Under the pieces are notes generated by a model. It saw only the letters and a list, made by a program, of their open reading frames with translations. It was not told the DNA's origin and ran no database searches. A stretch of DNA of 64,000 nucleotides. It comes from Burkholderiaceae bacterium. GTDB lineage: Bacteria; Pseudomonadota; Gammaproteobacteria; Burkholderiales; Burkholderiaceae_C. The translations under genes were made by a program, and so were the position numbers. The stretch lies in NCBI GenBank assembly GCA_032122355.1, contig JAUMCS010000060.1:9312-73311 (forward strand), in the 5' to 3' direction. Below, piece by piece: positions 669 to 14,599 of the stretch. Position 1 is the stretch's first letter, and each line of letters opens with the position of its first letter.

Positions 669-1154
669 TTAATTATTAAGGGTTTTAACTTCACGCTGAA
701 ATGGCTGAATCACAGCATACAGCGCATTTTCTTTATCGCATTTCCCAACACAAACCGATGGAGCACCCCACATCAAATTTTTGCCACCATAGTGCTGGGC
801 AGCCATTAAGGCCAAAAACCAACGCTCATACAGATCAGGTGTTTTTCCGCTCAAAACCAACGTGTCAGCACCAGGCTCTATGCTGACCCCAGGGTGCATA
901 ATTTTCAATGTGTTGGCAATTTCAATGATTTTTTCGCCTGCAAGTGGCTTCTTGGTTATTTCAAGTCGGTTCTGTGGGGTGTTAATGTAGGTTTGAGATT
1001 CTTCGATTTGATCCCGAGCTTTCATATATTTCTTCACCGAAAAAGACAACATAAAAGATGCCGCGACCAAACCCAAAATAATTGCCACACCTAAAATTTG
1101 TAGGTTTAGCACATTCCGGAGGACATCCCACTGGTTGGATAAGCCAATTCTCAT
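669..1154 (-). CDS. hypothetical bitopic membrane protein (possible GspM/PilO-like assembly component)
   Basis: 161-aa ORF with a short N-terminal tail, one TM helix (ILGVAIILGLVAASFMLSF) and a periplasmic domain of about 110 aa. It sits downstream of the ATPase/platform genes. The functional call rests on topology and position only. Confidence 0.35.
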   Translation of the reverse strand: MRIGLSNQWDVLRNVLNLQILGVAIILGLVAASFMLSFSVKKYMKARDQIEESQTYINTPQNRLEITKKPLAGEKIIEIANTLKIMHPGVSIEPGADTLVLSGKTPDLYERWFLALMAAQHYGGKNLMWGAPSVCVGKCDKENALYAVIQPFQREVKTLNN

Positions 1155-1180
1155 ATCACGTTCCTCACATAGTTTTGCTT

Positions 1181-2089
1181 TTACTGATCAAATACGACAT
1201 AACTCTTTGCAGTTACAACCACGCCCTGGTCACCCATGACTGACCGGTAGTTCCCTCCAAAAGGCTCAAGATAATCCTTTGAAATCCATTCAGGCAGCAC
1301 AATTTCAAAACTTTCTTTGCCGTCGATGACTGCGTATTGATTGATCCACCCGCCAGCCTTAATCGTGTTTGACGATATGTACTGCATTCGGTATAAAACT
1401 AGCGATAAAGCGGAAACACCATCTAAAGATGAAATTATTTTTGCGTAGTTGCGTAAATCATCCTCTTTCGCCGTCTTGAATTGAGAACGATCATACTTCG
1501 ACTGATTCATATCCCCCAAGAATGAGAATATCACAGATAGCAATAGGATTATAACAAGTATAATGCCGCCAACAATCGTTAAGATCTTAGAAACCCTGTT
1601 GGTTAATTTTAAGACTTCAGACTTGAAGGAAGAAAATCTCCATATTCCAGTTATTGAATCATCAACCTTATAAACAGGAACATCCAAATCATTGACATAA
1701 TTCTCAATCAAATAAGATTCATTTGCAATGTACCTAATAACTCCATTCTTCACCTCGACCATGGCAGAAATTGGCGCACCCTCTTGCAAGTAACAACCAT
1801 CCCCTCTAAAATTAGGATGCCCTGGCAGCGATAACGATAACGGGAAAGCCATGTCTTCCGCCGCACCTAATTCAGTTGAAGGTACAGCTAAATAGTGAAC
1901 AACCAAACGCTCTTGATCATAGGAAGTAATAACGTGAACATTTTCTGTACCCAAAAGATCCAGCAGCGCAAAAGTGACGACTGAACTTGCATCTTTTCTA
2001 TCAGATGGTAAGGTGCCGGCGACTATGGATGTATAGATTCTCTCAGTTTTTTTGTTAGGATTCATTAGAAAACCATTAGTTGTTGACAC
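1181..2089 (-). CDS. hypothetical bitopic membrane protein (possible GspL/PilM-PilN-like component)
   Basis: 302-aa ORF with a cytoplasmic N-domain of about 165 aa, one central TM helix (ILTIVGGIILVIILLLSVIFSFLG) and a periplasmic C-domain of about 110 aa. It overlaps the platform gene by 14 nt, suggesting translational coupling. The function is inferred from topology and context. Confidence 0.35.
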   Translation of the reverse strand: MSTTNGFLMNPNKKTERIYTSIVAGTLPSDRKDASSVVTFALLDLLGTENVHVITSYDQERLVVHYLAVPSTELGAAEDMAFPLSLSLPGHPNFRGDGCYLQEGAPISAMVEVKNGVIRYIANESYLIENYVNDLDVPVYKVDDSITGIWRFSSFKSEVLKLTNRVSKILTIVGGIILVIILLLSVIFSFLGDMNQSKYDRSQFKTAKEDDLRNYAKIISSLDGVSALSLVLYRMQYISSNTIKAGGWINQYAVIDGKESFEIVLPEWISKDYLEPFGGNYRSVMGDQGVVVTAKSYVVFDQ

Positions 2090-3317
2090 CTTGCAATAGG
2101 TATTTATTTTGAATATAAACCACCCAAAGAACGAGTAAAACGGTAATGCCAGTGTAAATCAGAGAAGAAATAAATCCAAAAATAGCGAATATCTTGGATG
2201 CAGACGTACTCAGCTCTTCTCGGGCATGTGCTATATTTTCAAACACACCACACAACTGCTCTTGTGTGGCATGGGAAGCAATTAGTAAGCTCTCGGAGGG
2301 AAGAAAAAGTTTTGAAGATAGTGCAGCTATGACATCAGAACCCGACTCTAATTTCAGTTTTACTTTTACCCAAATGGAAGCCACTTGCGGCATCTGGGCT
2401 GAACGACTGGCAATATCAAGCGTATCTATGAATGAGACCCCACCCCTCATCATGCGTGCAGATACACCTGCCGATGAGGCTATAGATGCATGAAAAAGTG
2501 CACGCCCAAGGCCTGGAATACGACCGATAATTTGCGCGGATGTGTTCTTGATATGTGGCGAAGCATTTTGAAAACCCAGAAAAAGCAATATACCGACAAC
2601 TAGCAGCAGAATAGCTGTGAACGCGAGCACATCACAAGCCAAAGTGGATACATGTATGGCTTGCAAAAACTCTAATTTATGTTCTTCCTTTTTGATATCA
2701 CTCGCTTGTTTCATCAGCATAGGCAGAAATTGAATACGTAGCCCTAAGATTGACACAATCGCAAAAATCATATCGATAAAGGTCCAGGATACAGCTCCAA
2801 TTAACGCCTTAAAAGATTTATTACTACTTTGGATATGGGCAATAGTTGCTCTAATTGAATCACGCACACCTCCGCTTGATTCGCCAGACTCTAACATTGC
2901 CAATGAGGTTGAATCAAATAATTTTAATGCTTTTATAGCTTCTGTGAAAGAAGCACCTGAACTCAAAAGCTCGAGCGCTTTGGTTGATTTAATAGGTAGT
3001 TTGCTGGGCAAATCCTCCAAAACTTTGTTTAAAGCTTTTCCCGGCGTCATACCTCCCTCTACGCAAAATAAAATCGCTTGCAAAATTCGAGCGCCAAGCT
3101 CCTGATTCTGAGGTTTTACAAAATACAATTGGAAAGAAGATACTTGACTGATGGCAATAACAATACCTCCTTGGGATGCGATAGAATTGACAACCTGCTG
3201 CTTATTGTCAGCAGACATTAGAAGTCGAACCTTTTGATAATCGCTCATTGAAATACTAGATTCCATCAACATACCATCTGCACTTGGCTTTAAAAAGGTT
3301 ACTCGGAAAGTTCTCAT
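2076..3317 (-). CDS. type II secretion / type IV pilus platform protein, GspF/PilC family
   Basis: 413 aa. It has the duplicated soluble-domain plus TM-segment organisation typical of T2SS-F proteins and lies directly downstream of the GspE-type ATPase. Confidence 0.7.
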   Translation of the reverse strand: MRTFRVTFLKPSADGMLMESSISMSDYQKVRLLMSADNKQQVVNSIASQGGIVIAISQVSSFQLYFVKPQNQELGARILQAILFCVEGGMTPGKALNKVLEDLPSKLPIKSTKALELLSSGASFTEAIKALKLFDSTSLAMLESGESSGGVRDSIRATIAHIQSSNKSFKALIGAVSWTFIDMIFAIVSILGLRIQFLPMLMKQASDIKKEEHKLEFLQAIHVSTLACDVLAFTAILLLVVGILLFLGFQNASPHIKNTSAQIIGRIPGLGRALFHASIASSAGVSARMMRGGVSFIDTLDIASRSAQMPQVASIWVKVKLKLESGSDVIAALSSKLFLPSESLLIASHATQEQLCGVFENIAHAREELSTSASKIFAIFGFISSLIYTGITVLLVLWVVYIQNKYLLQGVNN

Positions 3318-3325
3318 AGGGTAAT

Positions 3326-5086
3326 TTAGACTCTGAGCATTTCTTTTGCAAGTATATGATCTATCGCTCCAACTTGTAATAAGTTCTTGATAGAATCAGT
3401 TCTGGTTGTATATGCCATACCTGAATATTGATTGATAATATCTAGTAATGAATAAGTTCCGCTAGCTAGTTTAATAGAGACTTCAGATTTTGTTTGATCA
3501 TCAATATCAACCATTAAGGTCTCAGCCACTAGTACTCGCCCCATGGTTCCTTCGTCATTACATTTTTGACAACCATTGCGTACCATGATACCGGCATTAC
3601 TTTCTAAAGAAATGCCAATATCTGCGAGCTCCGTCTGCATAACACTAAAATCCGAAATGGTCGCTGGTGTGGCACAACTACATAGCTTTTTCATTAATCT
3701 TTGGTTGAATAACAGTCGTAAGGTATGACCCAAAGTGACTAATGCCTCACGCCTACCGTCTCCTTCAAAGAAGGATATAAAGCGATCATAAGTTTGCATA
3801 ACAGATGAAGCGTGAATAGTAGCCATCACCATATGCCCACTCTCCATAAATTTCAATGCGGCATGAGCCGTATCGGCATCCCGAATTTCACCCAAAATAA
3901 TAACATCAGGATCTTGCCGCAACAATGAACGCTCAGTTCCACGAGATGTTTCATGGAAAATCTGATTGATTTGAATTTGCCGCGCAAAGGGTAATTTGTA
4001 CTCTACAGGATCTTCCACCGTCACAACGTTCAAGGCATCTCTGGGCAAATTCTGAGCGATCGCATATAAGGATGTCGTTTTACCTGAACCTGTGGGCCCA
4101 GAGAATAGCACCAAGCTACCTGTTTTAGCCCGCACAGATGTTAAAAGCTTAACAAAGGACCTAACCCGAAGGTCGGCAAAAAACAGTTTCTCAAATGATG
4201 GTAGGGCCAATGGATCCAGCACCCGAATAGCAATGGTTTCTCCATCTGCCAAAGGCTGACTTGCAACCCGCAAGTCTATTTGTCTATTGGCATACTCAAA
4301 ACTTAAACGTCCATCTTGTGCGTCTCGGTTGTTCGAAGCATCAAGGCCCGCATCGATTTTAATTCGAGCAAAAATGGCCGACATTATTCTAGTGTCGACC
4401 AAATGTGCCTGCACCAAAACACCGTCAATGCGGTACGAAATCCAAGAATCGGGGTCTGCTTTTTTATCCAAGTGAATATCAGAGGCTCTCTTCTTCATAG
4501 CCTCTGTGAATATGGCATAAATAACCATGGATAGCTGCTGGGGAGTTATCGTACTCATACGAATTTCGTCAAGCAGCATATACAAAACAGCTGTAATCTT
4601 TTTAAGTCGTTCAATTTCAGCATTTACCTGCTGCAAGGATGCCAATTTTATAATGAGATAATTTACTTTATATATGCAACTTTCCAATATTTTTCTTTTT
4701 TCATTTGCATTTTGCGGCCTCGATGTCATAACCGTTAGTGCATCATCAGTCACAGATAATGGTACCAATTTATAGTACTGGCATATGCTTATAGGTAATA
4801 GTAGTGTGTCTTCTTCTTTTTTAAATGATATAGGCTTAGTTTGCGCATCAACCCCTTCGACTGAGCTCGTTATAAACTTATCCTGTAGCAATATTTCCTT
4901 AACACTAATATTTCTACCTAGGTTACTTAGAGCAATCCTTTTTTTAACAGCTATGTCAATCTGATGCTTACTTACTAATCCATCTTTAAGATATGCTCCA
5001 AACACCTTGTCGGTAATAGCGGTGCCTTGACTATTGCTTGTCAAGCCACCATCACCGGAACCTTGGTTTTGCTCAAGTTTACTCAT
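3326..5086 (-). CDS. type II secretion / type IV pilus assembly ATPase, GspE/PilB family
   Basis: 586 aa. Walker A motif GPTGSGKTT, Asp box/Walker B (DPDVIILGEIRD), His box, a tetracysteine motif (CSC...CQKC), and an N-terminal T2SSE_N-like segment (LLLPISICQYYKLVPLSVTDDALTVMTSRP). Confidence 0.9.
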   Translation of the reverse strand: MSKLEQNQGSGDGGLTSNSQGTAITDKVFGAYLKDGLVSKHQIDIAVKKRIALSNLGRNISVKEILLQDKFITSSVEGVDAQTKPISFKKEEDTLLLPISICQYYKLVPLSVTDDALTVMTSRPQNANEKRKILESCIYKVNYLIIKLASLQQVNAEIERLKKITAVLYMLLDEIRMSTITPQQLSMVIYAIFTEAMKKRASDIHLDKKADPDSWISYRIDGVLVQAHLVDTRIMSAIFARIKIDAGLDASNNRDAQDGRLSFEYANRQIDLRVASQPLADGETIAIRVLDPLALPSFEKLFFADLRVRSFVKLLTSVRAKTGSLVLFSGPTGSGKTTSLYAIAQNLPRDALNVVTVEDPVEYKLPFARQIQINQIFHETSRGTERSLLRQDPDVIILGEIRDADTAHAALKFMESGHMVMATIHASSVMQTYDRFISFFEGDGRREALVTLGHTLRLLFNQRLMKKLCSCATPATISDFSVMQTELADIGISLESNAGIMVRNGCQKCNDEGTMGRVLVAETLMVDIDDQTKSEVSIKLASGTYSLLDIINQYSGMAYTTRTDSIKNLLQVGAIDHILAKEMLRV

Positions 5087-5104
5087 GCCAGTATATTTAG
5101 GATA

Positions 5105-5857
5105 TTATTTGGATGCTGCACCAGTCGCAGTGTTAACAGCTGACTGTCGCACACCTCCATCCAAACCACCACCGGGCCCCTCCAATTTGCGTTCAGCAAT
5201 GGTCGTGCTTATAAAATTGGTATCGATGCTGGCTTTATATATAATACGTGTTGATTTATTTGATCCGTTCTCATCTGCAGAATTCGGCAACCAATATAGT
5301 GCGACTGAATCTGGCTGTACCCGTGCAATGACGCGGTAACCAGCAAAGTAATCAATGACTTCACCATCCCTAATAATGTAACTTAAATTCTTCTGCTGCC
5401 CTAAGCCACCTGGCGCACCAGCGGACTGACTAGCACCAGTAATCGTTGACTGCCCCCCTTGTCCAACTGACGTTTGCGTGCGTAGCATCGCCACTTTATC
5501 TAGAATAGCAGTCACAAATAATCCATTGACACTTTGCGTAAGTGCCTCGGGTATTGTCATAGCTTCCTGCTCCGGTTTGAGCGGATCACCAATCATAGGC
5601 AAATTACCACTTGATGAATTTAAAGCACCCGGAAGAGGACTTTTAGAAACTGATCCAGTTTGCTCATGGGCTCTCTCGCTTCTGCTACCAGCCACACTGG
5701 ATTGCTCAGAAACATATGATTTAGGGGGCCGTATCAAAGGGTTATTTATAATGGGCTGAGCATACAATACTTTCATTGCACCCATGAAACCCATCAACAA
5801 CGTGAGCCGAATGCAAAATTTTCTCAATATATATATTAATTTTCGGCTTTCCCCCAT
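5105..5857 (-). CDS. secreted/periplasmic protein of the secretion cluster (possible PilP/GspC-like secretin partner)
   Basis: The track ORF is 5105..5887. The ATG at 5857 (MGESRKLIY...) lies 1 nt after the secretin stop and is the likelier start. It has a hydrophobic signal/anchor (LTLLMGFMGAMKVLYAQP), a Ser/Gly/Gln-rich linker and a beta-rich C-domain (LSYIIRDGEVIDYFAGYRVIARVQPDSVALYWLP). Confidence 0.4.
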   Translation of the reverse strand: MGESRKLIYILRKFCIRLTLLMGFMGAMKVLYAQPIINNPLIRPPKSYVSEQSSVAGSRSERAHEQTGSVSKSPLPGALNSSSGNLPMIGDPLKPEQEAMTIPEALTQSVNGLFVTAILDKVAMLRTQTSVGQGGQSTITGASQSAGAPGGLGQQKNLSYIIRDGEVIDYFAGYRVIARVQPDSVALYWLPNSADENGSNKSTRIIYKASIDTNFISTTIAERKLEGPGGGLDGGVRQSAVNTATGAASK

Positions 5858-5858
5858 A

Positions 5859-7343
5859 TTAATCCTTAGATATATTTTGATTGTCACTATATTCTTTTAT
5901 CATCGATGGACGCACGAGCTCAGCCGGCAACAACGTATCAGTTTTACCTACATCATTCACCCCGTTGCTTGAAAAGTGAAGTATCCTCGGCCGTAATGCA
6001 ATGACCAATTCGGATCGATTATTGCTTTCGTTCTTGGAACTCTGACCTATAGAGTTAATCACATCTCCATTATCCCGCCTTGCACTAATGCCGCCTAGTA
6101 TTACCACATCCCCCGCCCTGGCTCTCATGATTGAATTGACGTTTCTTTCTGCTACCGTCGGTAAGGTAATCGTAGTTGTTCCTGCTGTTTTATCTTCAAT
6201 CTTCACTAGGTCAGATAAACTGAGTGAAATCTTGGTGTAGATACTCCCCTCGTGTACCTCTCCGAACAAAGCCAGATCAAATCCAGTTTTAACCTGACTG
6301 GTTTCTACCGTCGTTAACGAACCCGAGACACCACCAAGAACGGTACCAACTTTGCTCACAATCGTAGTGTTTTCACCAACACGTAAACTACCCTTAGTGC
6401 CAGAGAGCAAGGCCATGCGCGGCTGAGAAATGAGCCTTGCCGTGCCCTGCGAATTCAAAAAAGCAACAAAAGTATTCAGATTAAATTTATCGCCCGATAT
6501 TACTATATTTCCCACTTCATTGCTTGCCCCAGAAACCAAGAACTGTGCTGGCCTTTGCGATGCTTGCCAAATCAACGAATCCCACCTTATGCCATTCGAC
6601 TTCGATTCACTGAGGGTTACTTGATATACATGAATTTCATACAATAAAATAGATCTAGTTTTTCTCAAATAGGCCAAATACTGCTCAATGTTTTTTGCAC
6701 CATTACGGTTTGTTTTGTAGCTCACTGTTCTATTAAGCCTATCCAGATAAATATCACTGGCTCCGAGATACTGCATAGTGTTGGTTAGTCCGGCAGTGGT
6801 GTCCTCTGCTAGGGCTGGCGGCAGCTCCAGCACAAATGTCTCCTCAGGCACGATAGTTAGCAAATTGTTTCGGTAAGTGTAGAAAAAACCTATAGACTCA
6901 GAGATACGGTCGATTAACTGCGGTAATGTTCCTGTAAGTTTGACCGTCACTATATGTGCGTACTTATCCGCCAACTTAGGATTTCCATCCACCATCAGAC
7001 CTATCGAATAAGGCGCCAACATAATCCGTAAGGCATCCATATAACCTGCGTAACTCATGCTAATTGTCATGATCCTTCCATCGTCAGGAAGAGGATCAGA
7101 TGTCCGCATAGAACGCACAGAAAATGAACGTGACTCCTGCAAAGATTCAATTTGAATCTCAGAATCTTTGAATTCATCTCCTAGAGTTGATAATCTTTCA
7201 GGCCCTTCCGGATATTCAACACCCTGATTAGGCCGCAAGTAAGACTGGCAACCCGATAAGATAAGAATTGAACAAATGACTGATACAAGATAGAAAAAAT
7301 TTCTCACGCTTGCATCAGATTGTTTTAATTTAGTTCTATTCAA
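5859..7343 (-). CDS. secretin-family outer-membrane channel, lipoprotein type (T4bP/T2SS-like)
   Basis: 494 aa with a TTG start. Lipobox LILSGC at the N-terminus. The C-terminal secretin-domain pattern is ISQPRMALLSGTKGSLRVGENT...TLPTVAERNVNSIMRARAGDVVILGGI...SELVIALRPRIL. Confidence 0.85.
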   Translation of the reverse strand: MNRTKLKQSDASVRNFFYLVSVICSILILSGCQSYLRPNQGVEYPEGPERLSTLGDEFKDSEIQIESLQESRSFSVRSMRTSDPLPDDGRIMTISMSYAGYMDALRIMLAPYSIGLMVDGNPKLADKYAHIVTVKLTGTLPQLIDRISESIGFFYTYRNNLLTIVPEETFVLELPPALAEDTTAGLTNTMQYLGASDIYLDRLNRTVSYKTNRNGAKNIEQYLAYLRKTRSILLYEIHVYQVTLSESKSNGIRWDSLIWQASQRPAQFLVSGASNEVGNIVISGDKFNLNTFVAFLNSQGTARLISQPRMALLSGTKGSLRVGENTTIVSKVGTVLGGVSGSLTTVETSQVKTGFDLALFGEVHEGSIYTKISLSLSDLVKIEDKTAGTTTITLPTVAERNVNSIMRARAGDVVILGGISARRDNGDVINSIGQSSKNESNNRSELVIALRPRILHFSSNGVNDVGKTDTLLPAELVRPSMIKEYSDNQNISKD

Positions 7344-7344
7344 C

Positions 7345-10300
7345 TTACTTTCCTCTGATCTCGTCTCTATTTTTTTGATTAACTAGAGAAGTTTTCAGTT
7401 TAAAACGAATTGCATCACTTACCACTCCATAATTACCCGCATGGTCTACAACTCTAGCACTCAATGTTTTATCCCCATCTATACCCCAGTCTTTTCTACT
7501 CACAAGAAAATCCACGTACTGGTTGATGACATCAGTTGCTTCTATGCGTTTAGACTTCTCAATCGCAAAAGGGACACCATTCAGGAGCAGCTCAACCCTG
7601 TCTGCATATGATAATTCATTTTCACCCATAACTACCCTAATTGTCTTAGGAGTTGTCGCCTCGGCTAAGTTCATCCACCCATCAACCAAATCGCTACTTC
7701 CCCATTCCTTCACCATCGGCTTGTCAGGTACACTTGTTACCCGGGTAAACCTTATTGAACTTCTATCCGCACTAACATTACCTGCTTTGTCTGTAATCAC
7801 AGCTGTGATAATCTTCTCTCCATCAAAACCGAAGTCTTTCCCATCTACTACAAATTCAACAAACCCCCTTGTTAGATCAAGGGAACTGACATTTTTTGAT
7901 TGCGCATATGATAAACCATTTATTAATAAATCTACCCTGTCAGCCTCTTGAATTTTAGTGGCACCCATCATGTTAGGCAAATGAACTCTGATGGTCTGTT
8001 TTTTTTGTGCCTCCTGAGCATTAAGCCATCCATCGGCCAAATCTAATGTGGCTGTTTGCGATAATAAAGCAGCCCCAGGCGGTTCAGTATCAAACTCAAA
8101 TGTAATTGGTTTGCTCTTTGGCCCCTTGTTGCCCGACTGACTAATCACCTGCGCCGTCACCGACTTCAATCCGTCATTTCTCAATTCTGATGCGTTGAGT
8201 GAAAATTCAACGCGGCCTGTTCTTTGCGCGTTAATGTCAACAAGTTTGCTTTTATGACTCTCAAATGATGAACCGTTCAATAGCAATTCAATCGTATCAC
8301 CGACCTGAATTGATTCCTTTGCTACATCGGGTAGAACGACCTCTATACTTAATCCCTTACTGATTTCATTAGCGTTGACGTAGCCATCCGCTGTAAAGCT
8401 ATTGTCTTTTTCTACCAATGTTGGCATTGCAGGTACTAACCCAGAAACTGCAAAATTTAGTGCATCGCTGAATTTACCCACATTGCCTGCTTTGTCTATC
8501 AAGCGAACTTTTAATTCTTTGGGCCCATCTGCCCCCCACTCAGCTCCCTGCAAAACCATATCATAGTATCCCCTTGATAAGTCATCTGCATTCAAGGTCA
8601 TCTGCTTTGAGAGCCCCAGCATCTCTCCATTTAACCAGGCCTCTATACGACCACTCTCTGCTGCCACATTCCTCAAGCGCGATAATTCAATTCTGATATT
8701 TGTAGTTTTCCTCAGTTCAGCTGCATTCAACCAACCATCCGCCAAATGGTTAGTTCCGAACTCTATCAAACCCGGAGCATCGGGCATTTTTCGTACTAGT
8801 TTAAATAAAAATTCACCGTATGCGAGACCCACATTACCAGCACGATCAATAAAACGAGCAGTGATATTTTTATCTCCATCAGCATCCAAATCTGCACCCG
8901 AGAGTGAGAATTGAATACGTTTAGATTCGATTTCTTCTTTAGAAAGTGATTTAACTTTAGGAATTGAAAAAGGAAAGCCATTTAAAAGGAGCTCAACTTG
9001 ATCCCCTGGCACAAATTCATTACTGCCAGGTAGTAAAACCACCTTCACCCCTTTTAGCCGGCTTGACTGATCTCGATTCATGAAGCCGCTTAAAGGTGGC
9101 AAATCCATAAGCTCTAATGACACCGATGCCACAGGTGCCTTACGTTTCAAATTAAACGTAATCTTGTTTCCGAAGGGGCCTTTGTTACCTGCTCGGTCAA
9201 TCATGCGAAGGGTAAGAATCTTACGTCCATCTTCCCCGAGATTGGTCACATTCAGCGGTATATCAATATATTCTTTATCCGCATCAACTTGCTCTATAGT
9301 CTTTGAAAGAAGCAACGCATCATTGAGCAGCATCTCAATCTGATCACCCACTTTGACATCGTCATTTTTAGGTAAAACCACCCTCAAAGTTTTCGATTGC
9401 AGGGCTTCTTGAGCATTTAACCAACCATCCTCCAGATCAGGTGCCCCAACTTGCTTGAGTTGCAGTTCTGGTGGGAGTTTGGAGTCATAGAAAAAACTCA
9501 TGGGCACACGGGTAACATTGCCGTTTCCTGCAGGATCTTCGATTTTAGCTGTGATTTCCTTTGGCCCATCCTCTCCGAGATCGGAGGTTGCCAAACTGAA
9601 ATCGACGAAGCTGCTTAGCTTGTCTTTTTCATTCACAATCTTTGAACACGCGACACCACATAAACGCCCATTGATGAATAACTCCACTTTACTTCCGCTC
9701 ACCAATTCCGGCGATGCACGATCCATAGAAATGCGGAATTTATGTTGGCTTTTAGCTTCCTGCACATTTAACCAGCCATCACTGAGGTAAGACCCTCCGA
9801 CTTGTTCTATTTTTAATTCAGCAGGTGATTTTCTGTTCAGAATAAATTTTATCTCATTAGAGAATGCACCCACGTTTCCAGCTCTGTCGATCAATCTGGC
9901 GCTCAGCGATTTAATCCCATCATCACCCCACTCAACAGGATCAACTTGAAATTCAACATATTGATTTCGGACATCCAGAGCATCAATTTTCCTCTTTTTA
10001 CTTTGATGGAACCCCGCATGATTCACGAATAATTGGACTTCATCACCTATTTCAACAGAAATCTGACGCAGATCGACTCTCATCTTAAAAGACTCTATCG
10101 CCGCTTTTGCACTCAAATATCCGTTAACTATCGCTCCCGTCCGACTTTCTTTCAAACTGGGCGCAATTGGCTTATTTGTTTGCAATCTAAACTCGATGGA
10201 CCTACTTTCTCGACCGATATTTCCTGCTTTGTCTATGATTCGGCTAGCTATTGTCTTGAAGCCATCTCGCCCCAAATCTTTGGAACCGATCGAAAAATCA

Positions 10301-13068
10301 ACATAGCCGTTTTTGACGTCATCTTCCGCCAAAACCACACGTTTTATTTGCTTTTTCCCCTCATCTCCGATCAACAATTCGGCTGAGTCACCAATGATCT
10401 CAACAGGAGTACTCACTTTAGGTAGAAATACCCGCACAAGTTTCGGGCTCTGCACCTCAACCGAGTTTACCCAGCCATCACTAAAATGCGAGGTTACTTC
10501 CCTAATATCTGGCGGCTGCGGGTTTGTTGTATCTAAATAAAAATCAGCAACTATCTCAGGTAGGGAAGAATTCCCAGCTTGATCAAATATTCTGATGTAA
10601 ATCTTTTTGCTACCGTCCGCACCCAGATCTTTTGGCGGAAGCTCAAAATCTACCACTTTGTTTGTAATATCTTTAGACTCAATAACTTTAATTTTGGGCA
10701 AAGCAAAGGAAAAACCATTAAGCATCAACTCCAGTCTATCCCCTATATTCCATTCATGAACTAAAGCATCGAGTTCAACCCTAAAAGTCTGCAATTTAGC
10801 TACCTGCTCGGCATTCATCCATTTGCCACGAAAAATGGGATCGTTCCTCATTCGGAGTGACTTTGCTGAATCCAGTGTCGGCACCGGCAAAGAACGTGCG
10901 GAAGGAAGATGTTCAACTTGATTCTCATCCGCCTTCAAATTGTTCTTGCTGTCAGGCTGCTTGTTATCAAGTTTGATAATTTTTTTAGACCTAGTTTCTT
11001 CCACACCATACTCTTTTTTAGCCTTCAGAGAGTCACGGGCACCATCTTTAGTACTCTGCTCAGTAACAGTCTGGTTTTCTTGCTGATGCGAAATCTCTGT
11101 TTGTGCAGCCGGAATTTCCAACTCAAGAATAGACAATTTGTTACCTGGCGCCTGCTGATGGGGCTCTATCAAATTCTTTTGATCCACAGAGGCTGTGGTG
11201 CGATTCATAGGAGTTACACTGGCCGACCGTATCTCCACTGGTGCATCTATAACTATCGGATCAGATAATTTTTTTCTTTGTGAATGTGACGTTACATCAT
11301 CTTCTGTACCGTTGACGACTATCTCATTACCGATTACGCTGTTGTTTGCTTGGTCACTCAACTCAGCCTGTAAGACATATCCTCTACTTTCATTCAAATA
11401 TTCTTTTGGAACATAGAGATAGACAAAACCACGGCTTGCATCCTCATTGGTCAATAATTGGTTAATTGGGATTAATTGTTTTTCTTTTATGATCCTTAGC
11501 TCAGCCTTATCCCCTTTATACATTCTTAATGCTTTTGATGGCCACTCGAGCTTAATTCGTTTTTTACCCCCCTCTTCCGCTATTTCAATACCAAGCATGC
11601 CCCCTCGTGGCCCCGATGGTCTTGGGCTTACCAACTTGGGGGATTCCAATCGGTTTGTTTCCGAAATTAAGGAATTTGGGGGAATTTGAGATGTTGCCTC
11701 AGGAACCACTTCAGGAACCACTTCAGGAACCACTTCAGGAACCACTTCAGGAACCACTTCAGGAACCACTTCAGGAACCACTTCAGGAACGACTTCAGGA
11801 ACGACTTCAGGAACGACTTCAGGAACGACTTCAGGAACGACTTCAGGAACGACTTCAGGAACGACTTCAGGAACGACTTCAGGAACGACTTCAGGAACGA
11901 CTTCAGGAACCACTTCAGGAACCACTTCAGGAACCACTTCAGGAACCACTTCAGGAACCACTTCAGGAGCCACTTCAGGAACCACTTCTAACGCAGGTTG
12001 ATCTTGAACACTATTGGGCTCACTAACTTGGCTGGGTGCTTTGGAAATAGGAGTGAGTGCCATCGAATTATCATGCTCACCCAATATCTCAAGAGGCACA
12101 AGTTCAGTAGCCATCGAAACATCGACTGTATCCAGTATGAATCGAATTTCAGCACTCAACTCACTTCGGAAACCGTCTGAAGTTTGAATTCTGGCAGAGA
12201 GTGTTTTTTCACCATCAATACCCAAGTCCATGACGGTCAACTCAAACTCAACCGCAGGCGAAGGCGATTCGAGCAATACCGTTTTGCGGGGATGAAATGG
12301 CAATCCATTGAGGAGTAATTCAACCCAATCACCCGAGTTAAATTTTTTATCCACTCCTTCATAGTTAACTTGGATAAGCCTGTTTCGCTTAATTTCAGCA
12401 AAATCAAGAATACTATCCGACAAATCTTGCGAACCCTTCTCAGAGAGCAACAACCTGGCGAACGTCTCCCGCAACTGCGGTATCTTGCGAACTGGAGGGA
12501 GAGGTTCAACCCGCTCAACCAAGGCAACCTTCTCTTCTGGTGCCTCGTTCGGCTTAGGTGCCGCAGCCTGCGACTTGACGACTTCCACCACAGACGGTTT
12601 TTTGCTGTTTTTATCGACTAATGAGGGCTTGCTTTGAGCCAGGCTGAGCGATGGGGGTGGCAGTTTACCTAAAACCAAACTATAGAGTCTGGACTCAACA
12701 CCAGAGGGCTCAACCCACTCCAACATCAAGTCTAAAAAAGCATCCGTAGCTGCAACCTTGGACTTGATAACGAGCATAATTTTTTTTGCCGACCCCACCT
12801 CGATAGTTACGTCTGCATCTCGCAAAACAGCGGGAAACTCAAGGCCATTGCGCCTGTATCCCTCAGGCGAAGATAACCTCAAACCTTTACTAAGCAAAGC
12901 ACCCGATATTTCATCTGAAATCGGAACTTCAATGCGCAATGAGCCCGCCCCGGTAATCAGAACTTTGGGCTGACCTATTCCAACCGGCCATTGAGCAAAT
13001 GCAGTTCCTACAGCTCCTGCCACAAAACAAGCACGTACTGCTGCTAAAAGTAAATTTTTAGAAAACAT
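7345..13068 (-). CDS. giant secreted protein: FimV-core-like N-domain + (EVVP)n linker + at least ten Ig-like repeat modules
   Basis: The track ORF is 7345..13083 (TTG start). The ATG at 13068 (MFSKNLLLAAVRAC...) matches the paralogue's start. Signal peptide ends ...GTAFA/QW. The N-domain GIGQPKVLITGAGSLRIEVPI...LSSPEGYRRNGL...FLDLMLEWVEPSGVESRLYSLVLG resembles the FimV core domain as I recall it. At least ten modules of about 100 aa share the motif DGW(L/V)N...GD.(V/I)ELLLNG...YV(D/E)F...DG.K.(I/L).A(R/K).(I/T)D(R/K)AGN. Confidence 0.85.
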   Translation of the reverse strand: MFSKNLLLAAVRACFVAGAVGTAFAQWPVGIGQPKVLITGAGSLRIEVPISDEISGALLSKGLRLSSPEGYRRNGLEFPAVLRDADVTIEVGSAKKIMLVIKSKVAATDAFLDLMLEWVEPSGVESRLYSLVLGKLPPPSLSLAQSKPSLVDKNSKKPSVVEVVKSQAAAPKPNEAPEEKVALVERVEPLPPVRKIPQLRETFARLLLSEKGSQDLSDSILDFAEIKRNRLIQVNYEGVDKKFNSGDWVELLLNGLPFHPRKTVLLESPSPAVEFELTVMDLGIDGEKTLSARIQTSDGFRSELSAEIRFILDTVDVSMATELVPLEILGEHDNSMALTPISKAPSQVSEPNSVQDQPALEVVPEVAPEVVPEVVPEVVPEVVPEVVPEVVPEVVPEVVPEVVPEVVPEVVPEVVPEVVPEVVPEVVPEVVPEVVPEVVPEVVPEVVPEVVPEVVPEATSQIPPNSLISETNRLESPKLVSPRPSGPRGGMLGIEIAEEGGKKRIKLEWPSKALRMYKGDKAELRIIKEKQLIPINQLLTNEDASRGFVYLYVPKEYLNESRGYVLQAELSDQANNSVIGNEIVVNGTEDDVTSHSQRKKLSDPIVIDAPVEIRSASVTPMNRTTASVDQKNLIEPHQQAPGNKLSILELEIPAAQTEISHQQENQTVTEQSTKDGARDSLKAKKEYGVEETRSKKIIKLDNKQPDSKNNLKADENQVEHLPSARSLPVPTLDSAKSLRMRNDPIFRGKWMNAEQVAKLQTFRVELDALVHEWNIGDRLELMLNGFSFALPKIKVIESKDITNKVVDFELPPKDLGADGSKKIYIRIFDQAGNSSLPEIVADFYLDTTNPQPPDIREVTSHFSDGWVNSVEVQSPKLVRVFLPKVSTPVEIIGDSAELLIGDEGKKQIKRVVLAEDDVKNGYVDFSIGSKDLGRDGFKTIASRIIDKAGNIGRESRSIEFRLQTNKPIAPSLKESRTGAIVNGYLSAKAAIESFKMRVDLRQISVEIGDEVQLFVNHAGFHQSKKRKIDALDVRNQYVEFQVDPVEWGDDGIKSLSARLIDRAGNVGAFSNEIKFILNRKSPAELKIEQVGGSYLSDGWLNVQEAKSQHKFRISMDRASPELVSGSKVELFINGRLCGVACSKIVNEKDKLSSFVDFSLATSDLGEDGPKEITAKIEDPAGNGNVTRVPMSFFYDSKLPPELQLKQVGAPDLEDGWLNAQEALQSKTLRVVLPKNDDVKVGDQIEMLLNDALLLSKTIEQVDADKEYIDIPLNVTNLGEDGRKILTLRMIDRAGNKGPFGNKITFNLKRKAPVASVSLELMDLPPLSGFMNRDQSSRLKGVKVVLLPGSNEFVPGDQVELLLNGFPFSIPKVKSLSKEEIESKRIQFSLSGADLDADGDKNITARFIDRAGNVGLAYGEFLFKLVRKMPDAPGLIEFGTNHLADGWLNAAELRKTTNIRIELSRLRNVAAESGRIEAWLNGEMLGLSKQMTLNADDLSRGYYDMVLQGAEWGADGPKELKVRLIDKAGNVGKFSDALNFAVSGLVPAMPTLVEKDNSFTADGYVNANEISKGLSIEVVLPDVAKESIQVGDTIELLLNGSSFESHKSKLVDINAQRTGRVEFSLNASELRNDGLKSVTAQVISQSGNKGPKSKPITFEFDTEPPGAALLSQTATLDLADGWLNAQEAQKKQTIRVHLPNMMGATKIQEADRVDLLINGLSYAQSKNVSSLDLTRGFVEFVVDGKDFGFDGEKIITAVITDKAGNVSADRSSIRFTRVTSVPDKPMVKEWGSSDLVDGWMNLAEATTPKTIRVVMGENELSYADRVELLLNGVPFAIEKSKRIEATDVINQYVDFLVSRKDWGIDGDKTLSARVVDHAGNYGVVSDAIRFKLKTSLVNQKNRDEIRGK
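11701..11988 (-). repeat. perfect in-frame 12-bp tandem repeat, 24 units, encoding (EVVP)n inside the giant gene
   Basis: Counted by hand on the + strand. The order is 7x aggaaccacttc, 10x aggaacgacttc, 5x aggaaccacttc, 1x aggagccacttc, 1x aggaaccacttc. The c/g variant is synonymous (GTG vs GTC Val). Confidence 0.95.
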
Positions 13069-13258
13069 GCCTTGAAAGTCCAATCCTCATCGATTCAATC
13101 CTATGAACTTTAAATTTTTAGCAATACTACATTTTTCATAATTGGTGCAGTATATCAAAAAGATAGCGAGGCCTGTTCTCGGATTGACTGAGCCCAAGGA
13201 ATTTCACGACACTTCAATTTAATTACATTGAAACCAGCAAGATCGAACCTTGTTATTT

Positions 13259-14599
13259 TCATTTTAATGGGTCTTCAAGTTCAATGACGCCAATACCATC
13301 TGTAGCTGTATGCTCATCGAAAAATGGTAGCCTTACCGACTCACGAGCCTGCTCACGGAGAGCCTTCAATGTAAATCTTAATTCGGAACTCAAATCACTC
13401 TCAACACCATTTTTAGTTTGAATTTTGGCTGTGAGTGTTTTTTCACCTTCGATACCAAACTCCCCAAGGCGCAATTCAAATTCAACAACCGCAGCGGTTG
13501 ATGTGAGCAAAACCATTTTCCTAGGCTCAAATGGCAATCCATTTAAAAACAACTCCAAAATATCACCTTGGTTAAATTTTTTCTCACCACCTTGATAGAT
13601 AACCTGTATATATTTGACTTCTTGGTCACCCGCAAAATCAAGAAGACCATCAGAAAAAGCATGGCCTCCTTTTTCTGCCAACAAAAGCCTCGGCAGGTGC
13701 TCCTCCACCGCCGAGGGAGCCCTTAGCTCAGCAGCTGTCGGGGCTGCAGCTGTCGTCGGCACCACCTCAACAACAGCAGGCTCAATCTCGAATTGTTCAA
13801 CTGCAATTTGAGACACATGAGCAAGAACCGTGCCATCCTCTACATTCTTATTTTCTTCGGCAAATTGTAACCCTGTCTGCTCGCCCACATGCTCAAGTTC
13901 TTTCACACCTTCTGCTGCCCGCATTTGCACTGGCAAGGGCTCCTCCACTTGCAAGGGAGTAATTGGCTCAGAAACTGCAGGCACCTTGGCCACCGGCACC
14001 ACCGGAACAACTCCCGGCAGGACTTCTACCTGCTGAACTGATACAACCTCATCTTTCGAAACCTGCCGAGTAACCTCAGTCGGCACGGATGCCGCCGACT
14101 GAGACTTGGCGATTGCAGCCAAGGGATGTTTTTTGATGCTTTTCTTGCTTACCAAAGGATTGCTTTGAGCCTGGCCGAGAGCTACAGACGGCAGCTTGCC
14201 TAAAACCAAGCTATAGAGCCTCGTCTCCACACCAGCGGGCTCAACCCACTCCAACATGAGATCCAAAAAAGCTTCTGTCGCCGGAACCTTAGACTTGATG
14301 ACCAACATTATTTTTTTGGAGGCACCGAGCTCAATAGTAACATCAGCATCCCGTAAAACAGCCGGATATTCAAGACCATTCCGCCTATAGGCCTCTGGCG
14401 AGGATAACCTCAAACCTTTACTAAGCAAAGCGCCCGACAATTTATCAGAAATCGGAGTTTCAATGCGCAATGAGCCCGCCTTGGTAACGAGAACTTTGGG
14501 CTGACCTATTCCAGCCGGCCACTGAGCGAATGCCGTCCCCACCGTTCCGATCACATAACAAGCACGCACCGCCGCCAAAAGTAAATTTTTAGAAAACAT
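13259..14599 (-). CDS. secreted FimV-core-like protein with one Ig-like module; short paralogue of the giant protein
   Basis: 446 aa. Its N-terminal 140 aa or so are nearly colinear with the giant protein (MFSKNLLLAAVRACYVIGTVGTAFAQWPAGIGQPKVLV...). A Pro/Val/Ala-rich linker follows, then one module (GDILELFLNGLPFEPRK...EGEKTLTAKIQTKNG) matching the giant protein's first module. Confidence 0.8.
   Translation of the reverse strand: MFSKNLLLAAVRACYVIGTVGTAFAQWPAGIGQPKVLVTKAGSLRIETPISDKLSGALLSKGLRLSSPEAYRRNGLEYPAVLRDADVTIELGASKKIMLVIKSKVPATEAFLDLMLEWVEPAGVETRLYSLVLGKLPSVALGQAQSNPLVSKKSIKKHPLAAIAKSQSAASVPTEVTRQVSKDEVVSVQQVEVLPGVVPVVPVAKVPAVSEPITPLQVEEPLPVQMRAAEGVKELEHVGEQTGLQFAEENKNVEDGTVLAHVSQIAVEQFEIEPAVVEVVPTTAAAPTAAELRAPSAVEEHLPRLLLAEKGGHAFSDGLLDFAGDQEVKYIQVIYQGGEKKFNQGDILELFLNGLPFEPRKMVLLTSTAAVVEFELRLGEFGIEGEKTLTAKIQTKNGVESDLSSELRFTLKALREQARESVRLPFFDEHTATDGIGVIELEDPLK

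What the first reader, a model, noticed from the sequence alone, without database searches (positions are those of the whole stretch)
7345..13083. Giant FimV-core + Ig-repeat protein encoded immediately upstream of, and abutting, the secretin gene
After a Sec signal peptide, the N-domain aligns by eye with the FimV core region of P. aeruginosa FimV (GLG..I.V.S...PL.AEIEL / LASPEEF..AGV / EP.L.FLVE..WP.G...REYT.LLDPP). The corresponding segments here are GIGQPKVLITGAGSLRIEVPI / LSSPEGYRRNGL / DAFLDLMLEWVEPSGVESRLYSLVLGKLPPP. FimV is known to promote secretin assembly and T4P function. Here the domain is fused to an (EVVP)24 spacer and at least ten Ig-like modules of about 100 aa with the signature ...DGWLN...GD.VELLLNG...DG.K.ITARIIDRAGN. 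There is no LysM or TPR region. The stop codon is 1 nt from the secretin start. I do not know of a described FimV-core/Ig-array fusion. It could be the cargo or adhesin exported through the adjacent secretin, or a long periplasm- or surface-spanning scaffold anchoring it.
Basis: partly seen in the sequence, partly recalled or inferred. Interest (0 to 1): 0.8.

Follow-up and report, generated by a model that had tools for sequence, protein, structure and literature searches.

The report
FimV-domain Ig-repeat giant beside pilus secretin
A 209-kDa exported protein joins the periplasmic Ig-like domain of the pilus organiser FimV to a long adhesin-type rod and opens a horizontally acquired pilus-machine operon; the combination is almost unique in public data and probably forms a surface fibre, which is untested.

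Summary
On the minus strand, 7345..13068 (ATG; TTG alternative 13083) encodes 1,907 aa. It has a Sec signal peptide, a divergent FimV N-terminal Ig-like domain (Pfam PF25800, 31.7 bits, cut-off 27), one BIg module and a 24-unit (EVVP) repeat. About 280 poorly structured residues follow, then ten tandem 113-118-aa BIg modules homologous to RTX-adhesin extenders. It has no LysM, TPR, second membrane segment or RTX motif. The stop lies 1 nt before the TTG start of a BfpB-like lipoprotein secretin.

One label is wrong. TIGR03505 "FimV core" models the LysM region, which is absent here; the homology is to the domain upstream of it.

It also missed that both genes head a low-GC operon for a divergent type IVb-pilus-like machine. 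Related Burkholderiales clusters lack these two genes and carry a pilin-headed tail-fibre giant instead. Two other stand-alone FimV_N proteins I looked up sit in an MSHA-like pilus cluster and a Dot/Icm-like cluster.

Best reading (0.4): FimV_N docks the protein at the machine and the rod leaves through the secretin as an adhesin-like fibre. A non-exported scaffold role remains possible. This is a new domain combination of known parts; interest is moderate.

The parts
13259..14599 (-). Short paralogue, 446 aa: the same signal peptide, a FimV_N domain, a Pro/Val/Glu/Ala-rich linker of about 170 aa, one BIg module and a short tail.
   Evidence: Translation. Pfam FimV_N E 5.4e-10, 39.8 bits. BLASTP to the giant: 67% identity over aa 1-220 and 44% over the BIg1 region. 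The N-domain is 84% identical. The same arrangement, fba then short form then giant, occurs on an independent ENA/JGI contig.
7345..13068 (-). Giant gene, 1,907 aa from ATG 13068 (TTG alternative at 13083), 209 kDa. Stop codon at 7345-7347.
12994..13068 (-). Sec (SPase I-type) signal peptide, aa 1-25, predicted cleavage AFA|QW.
   Evidence: Read from the sequence. It is the only hydrophobic 19-mer above 1.6 in the protein. No lipobox and no class III (prepilin) motif.
12652..12993 (-). Divergent FimV N-terminal Ig-like domain (PF25800), aa 26-139.
   Evidence: AlphaFold2 model: pLDDT 83.4, pTM 0.75, beta-sandwich. Foldseek against PDB returns only generic Ig folds. No solved FimV_N by profile search.
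12442..12651 (-). Basic, Pro-rich linker, aa 140-209.
   Evidence: Composition: pI 9.8, 14% Pro.
12103..12441 (-). BIg module 1, aa 210-322, shared with the short paralogue.
   Evidence: Self-BLAST matches to the C-terminal modules at 27-44% identity. Alignments A2 and A4.
11699..11988 (-). 12-bp x 24 tandem repeat encoding (EVVP)24, an acidic proline-rich spacer, aa 361-456.
   Evidence: TRF: 24.2 copies, 98% matches. 23 EVVP plus 1 EVAP, with Val-codon blocks GTG/GTC/GTG. An independent contig stops within this gene after about 387 aa, near the repeat, which fits an assembly break there.
10852..11698 (-). Middle region, aa 457-739: a possible degenerate Ig module (about aa 490-590) followed by a hydrophilic, low-complexity stretch.
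   Evidence: The module profile scores only 5.3 bits here, i-Evalue 5. Sequence shown.
7363..10851 (-). Array of ten tandem BIg modules, 113-118 aa each, aa 740-1902. Signature: DGWLN ... GDxVELLLNG ... DLGxDGxK ... IDxAGN.
   Evidence: Pfam Big_13 59.5 bits summed. AlphaFold2 module model pLDDT 85.6. Foldseek best matches are MpIBP RII BIg domains 4p99/4kdv/5irb, E 1.8e-4, 24-25% identity. Module profile against PDB sequences: RTX-adhesin 5irb, E 1.6e-7.
5859..7343 (-). Lipoprotein secretin, 494 aa, lipobox LILSG|C.
   Evidence: Pfam Secretin 49.2 bits. Best PDB sequence match is BfpB (9u5s), E 4e-12. Weak MshL and PilN similarity, below cut-offs.
5105..5887 (-). Signal-peptide protein of 260 aa. 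PilP/GspC-like by position only.
   Evidence: No Pfam or PDB hit. The position is conserved in related clusters.
3326..5086 (-). GspE/PilB-family assembly ATPase with an MshEN domain, 586 aa.
   Evidence: T2SSE 265 bits, MshEN 24.4 bits..
2076..3317 (-). PilC/GspF-family platform protein, 413 aa.
   Evidence: T2SSF 64.5 bits.
1181..2089 (-). Bitopic protein of 302 aa. GspL/BfpC-like by topology and position only.
   Evidence: One central hydrophobic segment, read from the sequence. No family or PDB hit. Conserved position.
669..1154 (-). Bitopic protein of 161 aa. GspM/PilO-like by topology and position only.
1..637 (-). N-terminal 212 aa of a membrane-anchored PpiD/SurA-like chaperone, cut by the window edge (289 aa in L003).
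   Evidence: Translation. The L003 orthologue scores Rotamase_2 E 9.1e-6. The gene is conserved in most of the related clusters that extend that far.

Best explanation
The gene encodes a Sec-exported, adhesin-like rod that belongs functionally to the type IVb-pilus-like machine encoded directly downstream.

Proposed mechanism:
1. Sec takes the protein into the periplasm.
2. It folds there, possibly helped by the PpiD/SurA-like chaperone encoded in the same operon.
3. The N-terminal FimV-type Ig-like domain docks it at the periplasmic side of the machine, on the secretin, its partners or nearby peptidoglycan.
4. The proline-rich (EVVP)24 spacer and the array of about 11 BIg modules pass through the secretin channel. 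My estimate, assuming about 5 nm per module, is roughly 50-60 nm of rod.
5. The result is a long surface fibre, either tethered by its N-terminus or released.

The 446-aa short paralogue would be the same docking module without the rod.

Shown: the domain composition, the homologies, the tight operon packing, conservation of the giant-secretin adjacency in a second lineage, and other stand-alone FimV_N proteins encoded with trans-envelope machines.

Inferred: the docking, passage through the secretin, surface exposure and adhesive function.
For: (1) Only a Sec signal is present. There is no second membrane segment, no beta-barrel or T1SS/T5SS hit, no RTX motif, and 2 Cys in the mature protein. 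No T1SS gene was found among the window ORFs examined. The only outer-membrane conduit encoded nearby is the secretin, whose start lies 1 nt after the stop.

(2) The modules are homologous to extracellular extender domains of the RTX adhesin MpIBP. Eleven or more linked modules plus a 96-residue Pro-rich spacer would be longer than the periplasm is wide (my estimate from general knowledge).

(3) An orthologous Ig-array C-terminus ends 15 nt upstream of the secretin in L010, a lineage whose secretin is 63-68% identical. The same is seen in L003 at 99% identity.

(4) This machine family carries giant fibrous proteins as a rule. At least 26 of the 35 related GTDB loci, mostly Burkholderiales, hold a tail-fibre-type gene in the cluster; where it is not cut by a contig or locus end it reaches 2,100-2,900 aa. 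A PpiD-like chaperone gene is conserved wherever the locus extends that far.

(5) Stand-alone FimV_N proteins are encoded with other envelope-spanning machines. P0040 heads an MSHA-like cluster, two genes upstream of its secretin. P0024 lies in a Dot/Icm-like cluster. In P. putida FimV this domain is periplasmic, needed for correct placement, and has an unknown partner (PMC12918733).

(6) There is precedent. Type IVb pilus machines export Sec-dependent proteins encoded in their own operons, TcpF and CofJ (PMC10120004, PMC9565799, PMC6048534).
Against: There is no experimental or structural evidence for export or for a FimV_N-secretin contact.

The related clusters work without any FimV_N or Ig gene: profile searches hit only the window, L001, L003 and L010. 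The pair is therefore an accessory, lineage-specific addition.

The cluster family already has its own fibre gene at the other end. The start of one is seen in L050, a relative whose PpiD-like protein is 68% identical.

Known T2SS and T4bP cargo proteins are much smaller and globular, as far as I know.

The giant diverges no faster than the machine parts: 47% identity against 44-68%. That gives no sign of the diversifying selection common in surface adhesins.

P0040 is membrane-anchored, which fits a machine-accessory role for FimV_N as well as it fits a docking role.
Confidence: 0.4

Rival explanations
1. The proteins are non-exported periplasmic accessories or scaffolds, with a FimV/TsaP-like role. 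The FimV_N domain positions or stabilises the secretin, for example at a pole or on peptidoglycan. Both paralogues stay in the cell envelope, and the Ig array acts as a spacer, cage or folded mass.
For: FimV_N is a periplasmic placement domain in P. putida FimV. The two other stand-alone FimV_N proteins I could look up are encoded with machine components. One of them, P0040, has a C-terminal membrane anchor. The short paralogue has the N-module without any rod. The divergence rate is like that of the machine parts.
Against: There is no LysM or other peptidoglycan-binding domain and no membrane anchor. Ten or more serial RTX-adhesin-type extender modules plus a Pro-rich spacer are hard to fit or justify inside the periplasm. 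About 35 related clusters assemble the same kind of secretin without such a protein.
Confidence: 0.25
2. The protein is an ordinary giant adhesin or matrix protein whose export does not depend on the neighbouring machine. It would use the housekeeping T2SS or an unlinked transporter. It sits beside the secretin only because both travelled on the same horizontally acquired island.
For: The modules are of a type common in T1SS adhesins. The pair is absent from most relatives of the cluster. The whole block is low-GC foreign DNA, 0.43 against 0.51.
Against: There is no RTX repeat and no T1SS or T5SS feature. A Sec signal is not how T1SS adhesins are exported (general knowledge). The genes are co-oriented, with a 1-nt gap and a Shine-Dalgarno sequence for the secretin inside the giant's 3' end. 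The adjacency is kept in a lineage whose secretin is only 63-68% identical. The N-domain is of a type linked to trans-envelope machines.
Confidence: 0.2
3. The long ORF is an assembly artefact. The FimV_N head and the Ig array would be joined wrongly across the 290-bp repeat, or the gene is a decaying remnant.
For: Other assemblies break near the repeat. The exact protein is not in the 15-billion-protein collection. The window comes from a metagenome-type contig.
Against: A BIg module homologous to the C-terminal array lies upstream of the repeat in both paralogues, so the FimV_N + BIg fusion does not depend on the join. The frame is open for 5.7 kb. The part after the repeat has no start codon or signal peptide of its own. 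The repeat has an ordered GTG/GTC/GTG codon-block structure. The head and tail ends are each confirmed on independent contigs.
Confidence: 0.05

Closest known systems
FimV / HubP / TspA polar landmark proteins (P. aeruginosa and P. putida FimV)
   Same: A Sec signal followed directly by the same Ig-like N-terminal domain (PF25800). The alignment is collinear at 25-32% identity. FimV has a known genetic and functional link with type IV pilus machinery and its secretin (general knowledge). The domain is periplasmic and needed for placement (PMC12918733).
   Different: No LysM/'FimV core' (TIGR03505), no transmembrane segment, no acidic cytoplasmic region and no C-terminal TPR (TIGR03504). It carries a BIg array instead. 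It is encoded inside a pilus-machine operon rather than alone.
Giant RTX (T1SS) adhesins: MpIBP of Marinomonas primoryensis, LapA, SiiE
   Same: Tandem BIg extender modules of about 105-118 aa. Foldseek E 1.8e-4 at 24-25% identity to MpIBP RII. Module profile against RTX-adhesin 5irb, E 1.6e-7. Sub-threshold NCBIfam Ig_like_ice and Ca_tandemer hits. The general design is a rod with a distinct N-terminal cell-proximal module.
   Different: It has an N-terminal Sec signal. It has no RTX nonapeptides or C-terminal T1SS signal region. No ABC, MFP or TolC gene was found among the window ORFs examined. Its neighbour is a secretin.
TcpF (V. cholerae TCP) and CofJ (ETEC CFA/III), soluble proteins exported by type IVb pilus machines
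   Same: A Sec-signal protein encoded in the operon of a type IVb-like pilus machine with a lipoprotein secretin. Export through that machine is the model proposed here (PMC10120004, PMC9565799, PMC6048534).
   Different: No sequence similarity. The giant is several times larger (general knowledge for TcpF and CofJ sizes). It is rod-like and sits at the head of the operon. No binding to a minor pilin has been shown.
Inverse autotransporters (intimin, invasin)
   Same: The order of parts is the same: signal peptide, a periplasmic anchoring domain, then a C-terminal Ig-like array displayed outside (general knowledge). Intimin D00-D0 appears among the weak fold matches.
   Different: No beta-barrel translocator domain in the protein. 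Any outer-membrane passage would need a separate protein.
Burkholderiales type IV filament clusters with a tail-fibre giant (Actimicrobium, Limnobacter, Undibacterium; L007, L014, L016, L024-L038)
   Same: The same machine family, with secretins 33-42% identical and the order secretin, ATPase, platform, two bitopic proteins, PpiD-like chaperone, pilin-like genes. Each carries a giant fibrous protein gene, in several cases directly upstream of the secretin.
   Different: Their giant is unrelated. It has a pilin-like N-domain, tail-fibre-like repeats and a Peptidase_S74 chaperone domain. None has a FimV_N or these BIg modules.

Membership tests
FimV/HubP family polar landmark proteins | N-terminal periplasmic Ig-like domain (Pfam FimV_N, PF25800) | tested here: met
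   31.7 bits against a cut-off of 27, E 1.8e-7. The paralogue scores 39.8 bits. The reciprocal exhaustive search returns FimV proteins. The alignment is collinear.
FimV/HubP family polar landmark proteins | LysM-type peptidoglycan-binding 'FimV core' (TIGR03505, Pfam LysM) | tested here: not met
   No hit at E <= 0.01. Control FimVs hit TIGR03505 at 75-81 bits at about aa 190-300.
FimV/HubP family polar landmark proteins | Single transmembrane segment followed by an acidic cytoplasmic region | tested here: not met
   No hydrophobic 19-mer above 1.6 outside the signal peptide.
FimV/HubP family polar landmark proteins | C-terminal TPR 'FimV domain' (TIGR03504) | tested here: not met
   No hit. 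Controls hit at 47-63 bits.
Bacterial Ig-like (BIg / Big_13) extender-repeat proteins | Tandem modules of about 100-118 aa matching BIg profiles and fold | tested here: met
   Big_13 scores 59.5 bits for the whole protein against a cut-off of 27, but no single stretch passes alone, and only 3 of 14 isolated modules reach E < 0.1. AlphaFold2 model pLDDT 85.6. Foldseek and profile matches to MpIBP BIg domains.
T1SS RTX adhesins | C-terminal RTX nonapeptide repeats (GGxGxD) and secretion signal, with no N-terminal Sec signal | tested here: not met
   Zero GGxGxD motifs. The protein ends 5 residues after the last BIg module. A Sec signal is present.
T1SS RTX adhesins | Cognate ABC transporter, MFP and TolC-like genes nearby | tested here: not met
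   None among the window ORFs examined. The rest of the genome was not available.
Type V inverse autotransporters | Outer-membrane beta-barrel between the periplasmic domain and the Ig array | tested here: not met
   No such Pfam or NCBIfam hit.
Type IVb-pilus-like / type IV filament machine (the operon) | Secretin, GspE/PilB ATPase and PilC/GspF platform in one operon | tested here: met
   The secretin's best solved relative is BfpB.
Type IVb-pilus-like / type IV filament machine (the operon) | Pilins with a class III signal peptide (G|F...E5) and a prepilin peptidase | tested here: inconclusive
   The pilin genes lie beyond the window edge. In close relatives (L048, L050) and in 35 related loci the pilin-like proteins have a QxG|F(I/V)Q leader without Glu5 and no N_methyl hit. 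A PilD peptidase gene is present in the window, but with the housekeeping pilB-pilC cluster (55256..56194).
T4bP/T2SS exported cargo (TcpF/CofJ-like) | Machine-dependent release from the periplasm | not testable with these tools
   Needs expression and fractionation with secretin and ATPase mutants.

The most novel reading that the evidence does not exclude
The protein is a secretin-tethered surface fibre. The FimV-type Ig domain stays in the periplasm bound to the secretin. The (EVVP)24 spacer, about 29 nm if extended by my estimate, runs through the secretin channel. The BIg rod projects outside the cell. This would be a new way of displaying an adhesin, a separate-pore analogue of inverse autotransporters and of N-terminally retained RTX adhesins. 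It would also name the secretin as the unknown partner of FimV's Ig-like domain.
Probability: 0.12. Interest if true: 0.85.

Novelty: new variant of a known kind. Interest (0 to 1): 0.5.

Why it matters
Three reasons.

1. The binding partner of FimV's periplasmic Ig-like domain is an open question; a 2026 study states it is unknown (PMC12918733). Here that domain occurs stripped of every other FimV feature and sits in front of a secretin gene. A second stand-alone FimV_N protein heads another secretin-containing pilus cluster. This gives a concrete, testable candidate partner: the secretin or its periplasmic ring.

2. If the rod is exported, it would be, to my knowledge, an unusually large and elongated substrate for a type IV filament/secretin machine. 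It would also be a Sec-dependent route for an RTX-adhesin-type rod.

3. The work exposes a widespread, uncharacterised Burkholderiales pilus-machine family with non-canonical pilins and giant fibre genes. Cultured hosts (Limnobacter, Actimicrobium) could be used to test these ideas.

Tried and rejected
- E. coli origin: megablast of the locus and of flanking housekeeping DNA against all complete E. coli genomes found no match.
- Genome-collection scan with the platform protein alone: no relative found. Repeating it with a secretin alignment worked.
- Word-indexed protein search with the N-terminal 332 aa returned only the paralogue clusters. The same search with the last three modules returned nothing.
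- The giant is not in the protein collection, so its own contigs could not be looked up.
A control FimV N-domain is also negative, because the model covers the LysM region. The test is therefore uninformative for the N-domain.
- PDB sequence search of the whole giant returned only low-complexity matches of (EVVP)n to the circumsporozoite NANP repeats. I rejected these as compositional.
- Foldseek of the FimV_N model returned only generic Ig folds (E about 0.02, TM about 0.4), and a profile search found no solved FimV_N. No functional inference is possible from these.
- The two-module alignment for structure prediction came out of register (A3) and was dropped.
- Promoter and terminator scans between the paralogues gave counts at chance level.
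- The 260-, 302- and 161-aa proteins have no Pfam or PDB sequence match. Their roles are assigned by position and topology only.
- I could not name the source organism. No names are attached to its proteins. The relatives of the cluster and a Neisseria-like type II-C CRISPR repeat (my recollection) point to a betaproteobacterium.
- Literature searches found no description of such a fusion or of this cluster family.
Full report
**What is there.**
The finding lies on the minus strand. An uninterrupted ORF runs from 13083 (TTG) to the stop at 7345-7347. The gene immediately upstream begins with the same peptide, MFSKNLLLAAVRAC, at its ATG. The true start is therefore most likely ATG 13068, giving 1,907 aa and 209 kDa.

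In order, the protein contains:
- A Sec-type signal peptide (…GTAFA|QWP). This is the only hydrophobic segment in the protein.
- A domain of about 115 aa that matches Pfam FimV_N.
- A basic Pro-rich linker.
- One Ig-like module (aa 210-322).
- A 12-bp x 24 tandem repeat at 11699..11988, encoding 23 EVVP plus 1 EVAP.
- About 280 aa of hydrophilic, poorly conserved sequence. It may hold one degenerate module, which is not significant.
- Ten tandem modules of 113-118 aa (aa 740-1902), 29-40% identical to one another.

The protein ends five residues after the last module. It has no LysM, TPR, RTX nonapeptide, beta-barrel or second membrane segment, and two Cys in the mature chain. The stop is 1 nt from the TTG start of the next gene, which is preceded by GAGGA.

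**The N-domain is FimV-like, but it is not the 'FimV core'.**
Pfam FimV_N (PF25800) scores 31.7 bits (cut-off 27, E 1.8e-7) on the giant and 39.8 bits on the upstream paralogue. I ran an exhaustive phmmer search of the first 145 residues against 1.84 billion representative proteins. It returned one close cluster, the paralogue at 84% identity. After that came only proteins at 26-36% identity (E 1.7e-7 to 1e-3). The ten of these that I scanned are bona fide FimVs or FimV_N proteins, with FimV_N at 79-134 bits and several carrying LysM and TPR.

An 18-sequence alignment is essentially collinear across the domain. With that alignment AlphaFold2 gives a beta-sandwich with pLDDT 83 and pTM 0.75. 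Foldseek finds only generic Ig folds, and no FimV_N structure has been solved.

In control FimVs, however, that model maps to about aa 190-300, the LysM region downstream of the Ig-like domain. So the giant shares only FimV's first domain and fails the other three defining features of the family. It is not a FimV.

A 2026 paper shows that this Ig-like domain of P. putida FimV is periplasmic. It is required for correct polar placement, and its binding partner is unknown (PMC12918733).

**The repeats are adhesin-type extender modules.**
Pfam Big_13 reaches 59.5 bits only when summed over the whole protein. Single modules are barely detectable. An AlphaFold2 model of one module, using the internal repeats as the alignment, has pLDDT 85.6. 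Its best PDB matches are the Ca2+-stabilised BIg domains of the Marinomonas ice-binding RTX adhesin (4p99, 4kdv, 5irb; E 1.8e-4, 24-25% identity). A profile of the modules finds the same RTX adhesin by sequence at E 1.6e-7. Close homologues of the array were not found by the word-indexed search.

Gene 13259..14599 (446 aa) has the same signal peptide and FimV_N domain, a longer Pro/Val/Glu/Ala-rich linker, one BIg module and a short tail. The order fba, short form, giant recurs on an independent 9.9-kb contig. There the second gene is cut off after about 387 aa, close to the repeat, which fits an assembly break at that point. Both paralogues carry FimV_N plus a BIg module upstream of the repeat. 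The fusion therefore does not depend on how the repeat was assembled.

**The neighbourhood is a complete, foreign, type IVb-pilus-like operon.**
Downstream on the same strand, with gaps of 8-27 nt or short overlaps of the mechanically called ORFs, lie:
- A lipoprotein secretin. Its best solved relative is BfpB, E 4e-12.
- A 260-aa signal-peptide protein.
- A GspE/PilB ATPase with an MshEN domain.
- A PilC/GspF platform protein.
- Two bitopic proteins.
- At the window edge, a membrane-anchored PpiD/SurA-like chaperone.

Close relatives on short metagenome contigs continue with two pilin-like genes and the start of a further gene. The block from 1 to about 14,700 has 43% GC against 51% for the rest of the window. 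GC3 is 0.39 for the giant against 0.50 for ileS. The block abuts fba and tRNA-Leu. The window also holds the housekeeping pilB-pilC-pilD-coaE genes. The island machine is therefore a second, acquired system.

**Comparative survey.**
Secretin homologues at 30-42% identity define a cluster family in 35 GTDB genomes. Most are Burkholderiales (Actimicrobium, Herminiimonas, Undibacterium, Noviherbaspirillum, Limnobacter, Rubrivivax). A few are Rhodocyclales or Thiobacillus.

Their gene order is conserved: secretin, PilP-like, ATPase, platform, two bitopic proteins, PpiD-like chaperone, two or three pilin-like genes, then a last gene that is usually giant. The pilin-like proteins have a QxG|F(I/V)Q leader without Glu5.

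That last gene has a conserved N-domain. In the Rhodocyclales and Thiobacillus versions the N-domain stands alone (236-312 aa) with a pilin-like leader. In Burkholderiales it is followed by tail-fibre-like repeats and a Peptidase_S74 chaperone domain, reaching 2,100-2,900 aa where complete. In the Actimicrobium arrangement this giant lies directly upstream of the secretin.

Profile searches with FimV_N and with the BIg module over all six-frame ORFs of 46 loci hit only the window lineage (window, L001, L003) and L010. L010 comes from a lineage whose secretin is 63-68% identical. It carries an orthologous Ig-array C-terminus (47% identity) ending 15 nt before its secretin. L050, a relative whose PpiD-like protein is 68% identical to the window lineage's, also has the start of a fibre-type gene after its pilins.

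Two conclusions follow. First, this machine family habitually comes with giant fibrous proteins. Second, the FimV_N/BIg pair is an extra, lineage-restricted addition at the head of the operon, not a core part.

**FimV_N elsewhere.**
Two other stand-alone FimV_N proteins from the exhaustive search could be placed on contigs.
- P0040 has a signal peptide, FimV_N, a linker and a membrane anchor. Its domain is 28% identical to the giant's, pairwise E 2e-13. It heads an MSHA-like cluster: FimV_N, pilin, STN-secretin, TPR protein, MshEN ATPase, platform.
- P0024 lies in a Dot/Icm-like cluster with DotM_C, TraG-D_C and SLT genes.

With only two cases this is a lead, not a statistic. It does fit a view of FimV_N as a portable periplasmic module that ties proteins to envelope-spanning machines.

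**Mechanism.**
I commit to the following, at confidence 0.4. Sec exports the protein. It folds in the periplasm, where the operon's PpiD-like chaperone is a plausible helper. The FimV_N domain docks it at the periplasmic face of the island's machine. The proline-rich spacer and the BIg rod then leave through the secretin to form a long adhesin-like fibre, tethered or released.

The arguments for export are:
- No other outer-membrane route is evident in the protein or the window.
- The modules are extracellular-type extender domains.
- The rod would be about 50-60 nm plus spacers, by my estimate of about 5 nm per module. That is longer than the periplasm is wide.
- The adjacency is conserved across lineages.
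- The machine family habitually carries giant fibres.
- There is precedent in TcpF and CofJ, which are exported by type IVb pilus machines (PMC10120004, PMC9565799, PMC6048534).

The arguments against are:
- There is no direct evidence.
- The pair is dispensable in related clusters.
- The size and shape are unlike known cargo of such machines.
- The divergence rate is no higher than that of the machine parts.

The main rival, at 0.25, is a non-exported FimV/TsaP-like accessory that positions the secretin. P0040's membrane anchor and the existence of the short form favour it. The lack of any peptidoglycan or membrane anchor and the long rod disfavour it. An unlinked adhesin that merely shares the island gets 0.2. 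An assembly artefact gets 0.05.

**Novelty and score.**
All the parts are known kinds: a FimV Ig-like domain, BIg extender modules, and a type IVb-like machine. The combination is essentially unique in the databases searched, and literature searches found no description of it. I rate it a new variant of a known kind, with interest 0.5. It is not a categorically new system, and the host is uncultured. It does offer a concrete hypothesis for an open question, the partner of FimV's Ig-like domain. It also points to a possible new display route for an adhesin rod. The most novel reading not excluded is a fibre tethered in and through the secretin, with probability about 0.12.

Noticed in passing
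window 40196-41170 (array), 41580-42488 and 42451-45921 (minus strand), 46108-46195: A type II CRISPR-Cas locus. It has 15 repeat copies at 66-nt spacing, with core GTTGTAGCCCCCTCTCTCACCCCGGATTGCTACAAT. By my recollection this resembles the Neisseria type II-C repeat. Cas1 (302 aa) and a Cas9-like protein of 1,156 aa (HNH_4, RuvC_III) lie beside it, next to tRNA-Ser, in a region of slightly lower GC.
   Followed up: partly
window 54627-59108 (minus strand): The housekeeping type IVa pilus genes pilB (T2SSE 496 bits), pilC, pilD (Peptidase_A24) and coaE. The genome therefore has a canonical pilus system and a prepilin peptidase that the island machine, which shows no peptidase gene of its own so far, could borrow.
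   Followed up: partly
window 38567-40100: An AbiEii-family toxin (type IV toxin-antitoxin, 304 aa) preceded by an unassigned 216-aa ORF, just upstream of the CRISPR array.
   Followed up: no
L007 3575-9919; L014 2749-9909; L016 1189-9861; L008 20012-21655; L024-L038 from about 18,900: Burkholderiales relatives of the cluster encode giant proteins, up to about 2,900 aa. They have an N-terminal hydrophobic leader, a conserved pilin-like N-domain, tail-fibre-like repeats and a C-terminal Peptidase_S74 intramolecular-chaperone domain. These look like pilus-associated tail-fibre adhesins, and I found no description of them.
   Followed up: partly
L040 17070-18005; L041 11539-12459; L042 11144-11851: In Rhodocyclales and Thiobacillus versions of the cluster, the homologue of the fibre giant's N-domain is a small protein of 236-312 aa with a pilin-like leader (…QSG|S-hydrophobic). 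This suggests the Burkholderiales giants arose by fusing a fibre to a minor pilin.
   Followed up: partly
L048 944-1636; L050 415-1071 and 1080-1820; pilin-like genes in L008 and L012-L046: The pilin-like proteins of this cluster family share a leader motif, QxG|F(I/V)Q(A/G)…LF(A/G)(I/L)AL. It lacks the near-universal Glu5, and Pfam N_methyl does not recognise it. The candidate major pilins I read (L048, L050, L008) have two Cys in the C-terminal part.
   Followed up: partly
L051 812-1825 (P0040) and downstream; L053 10001-11929 (P0024): Stand-alone FimV_N proteins without LysM or TPR occur in other machine clusters. One heads an MSHA-like pilus cluster, two genes upstream of its secretin. The other lies in a Dot/Icm-like cluster with DotM_C, TraG-D_C and SLT genes.
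   Followed up: partly
window 11699-11988: The 12-bp repeat is built of three blocks that differ only in one Val codon (GTG, then GTC, then GTG). This suggests stepwise expansion. Length variation between strains is likely but could not be measured, because other assemblies break here.
   Followed up: partly
window 1-14700 versus 14850-64000: The whole pilus-machine block has 43% GC against 51% for the flanking housekeeping DNA (fba, tRNA-Leu, ileS, lspA). The more distant relative L010 has 41% GC. This suggests an island from an unidentified low-GC donor. No integrase is visible, because the window cuts the island at its far end.
   Followed up: partly
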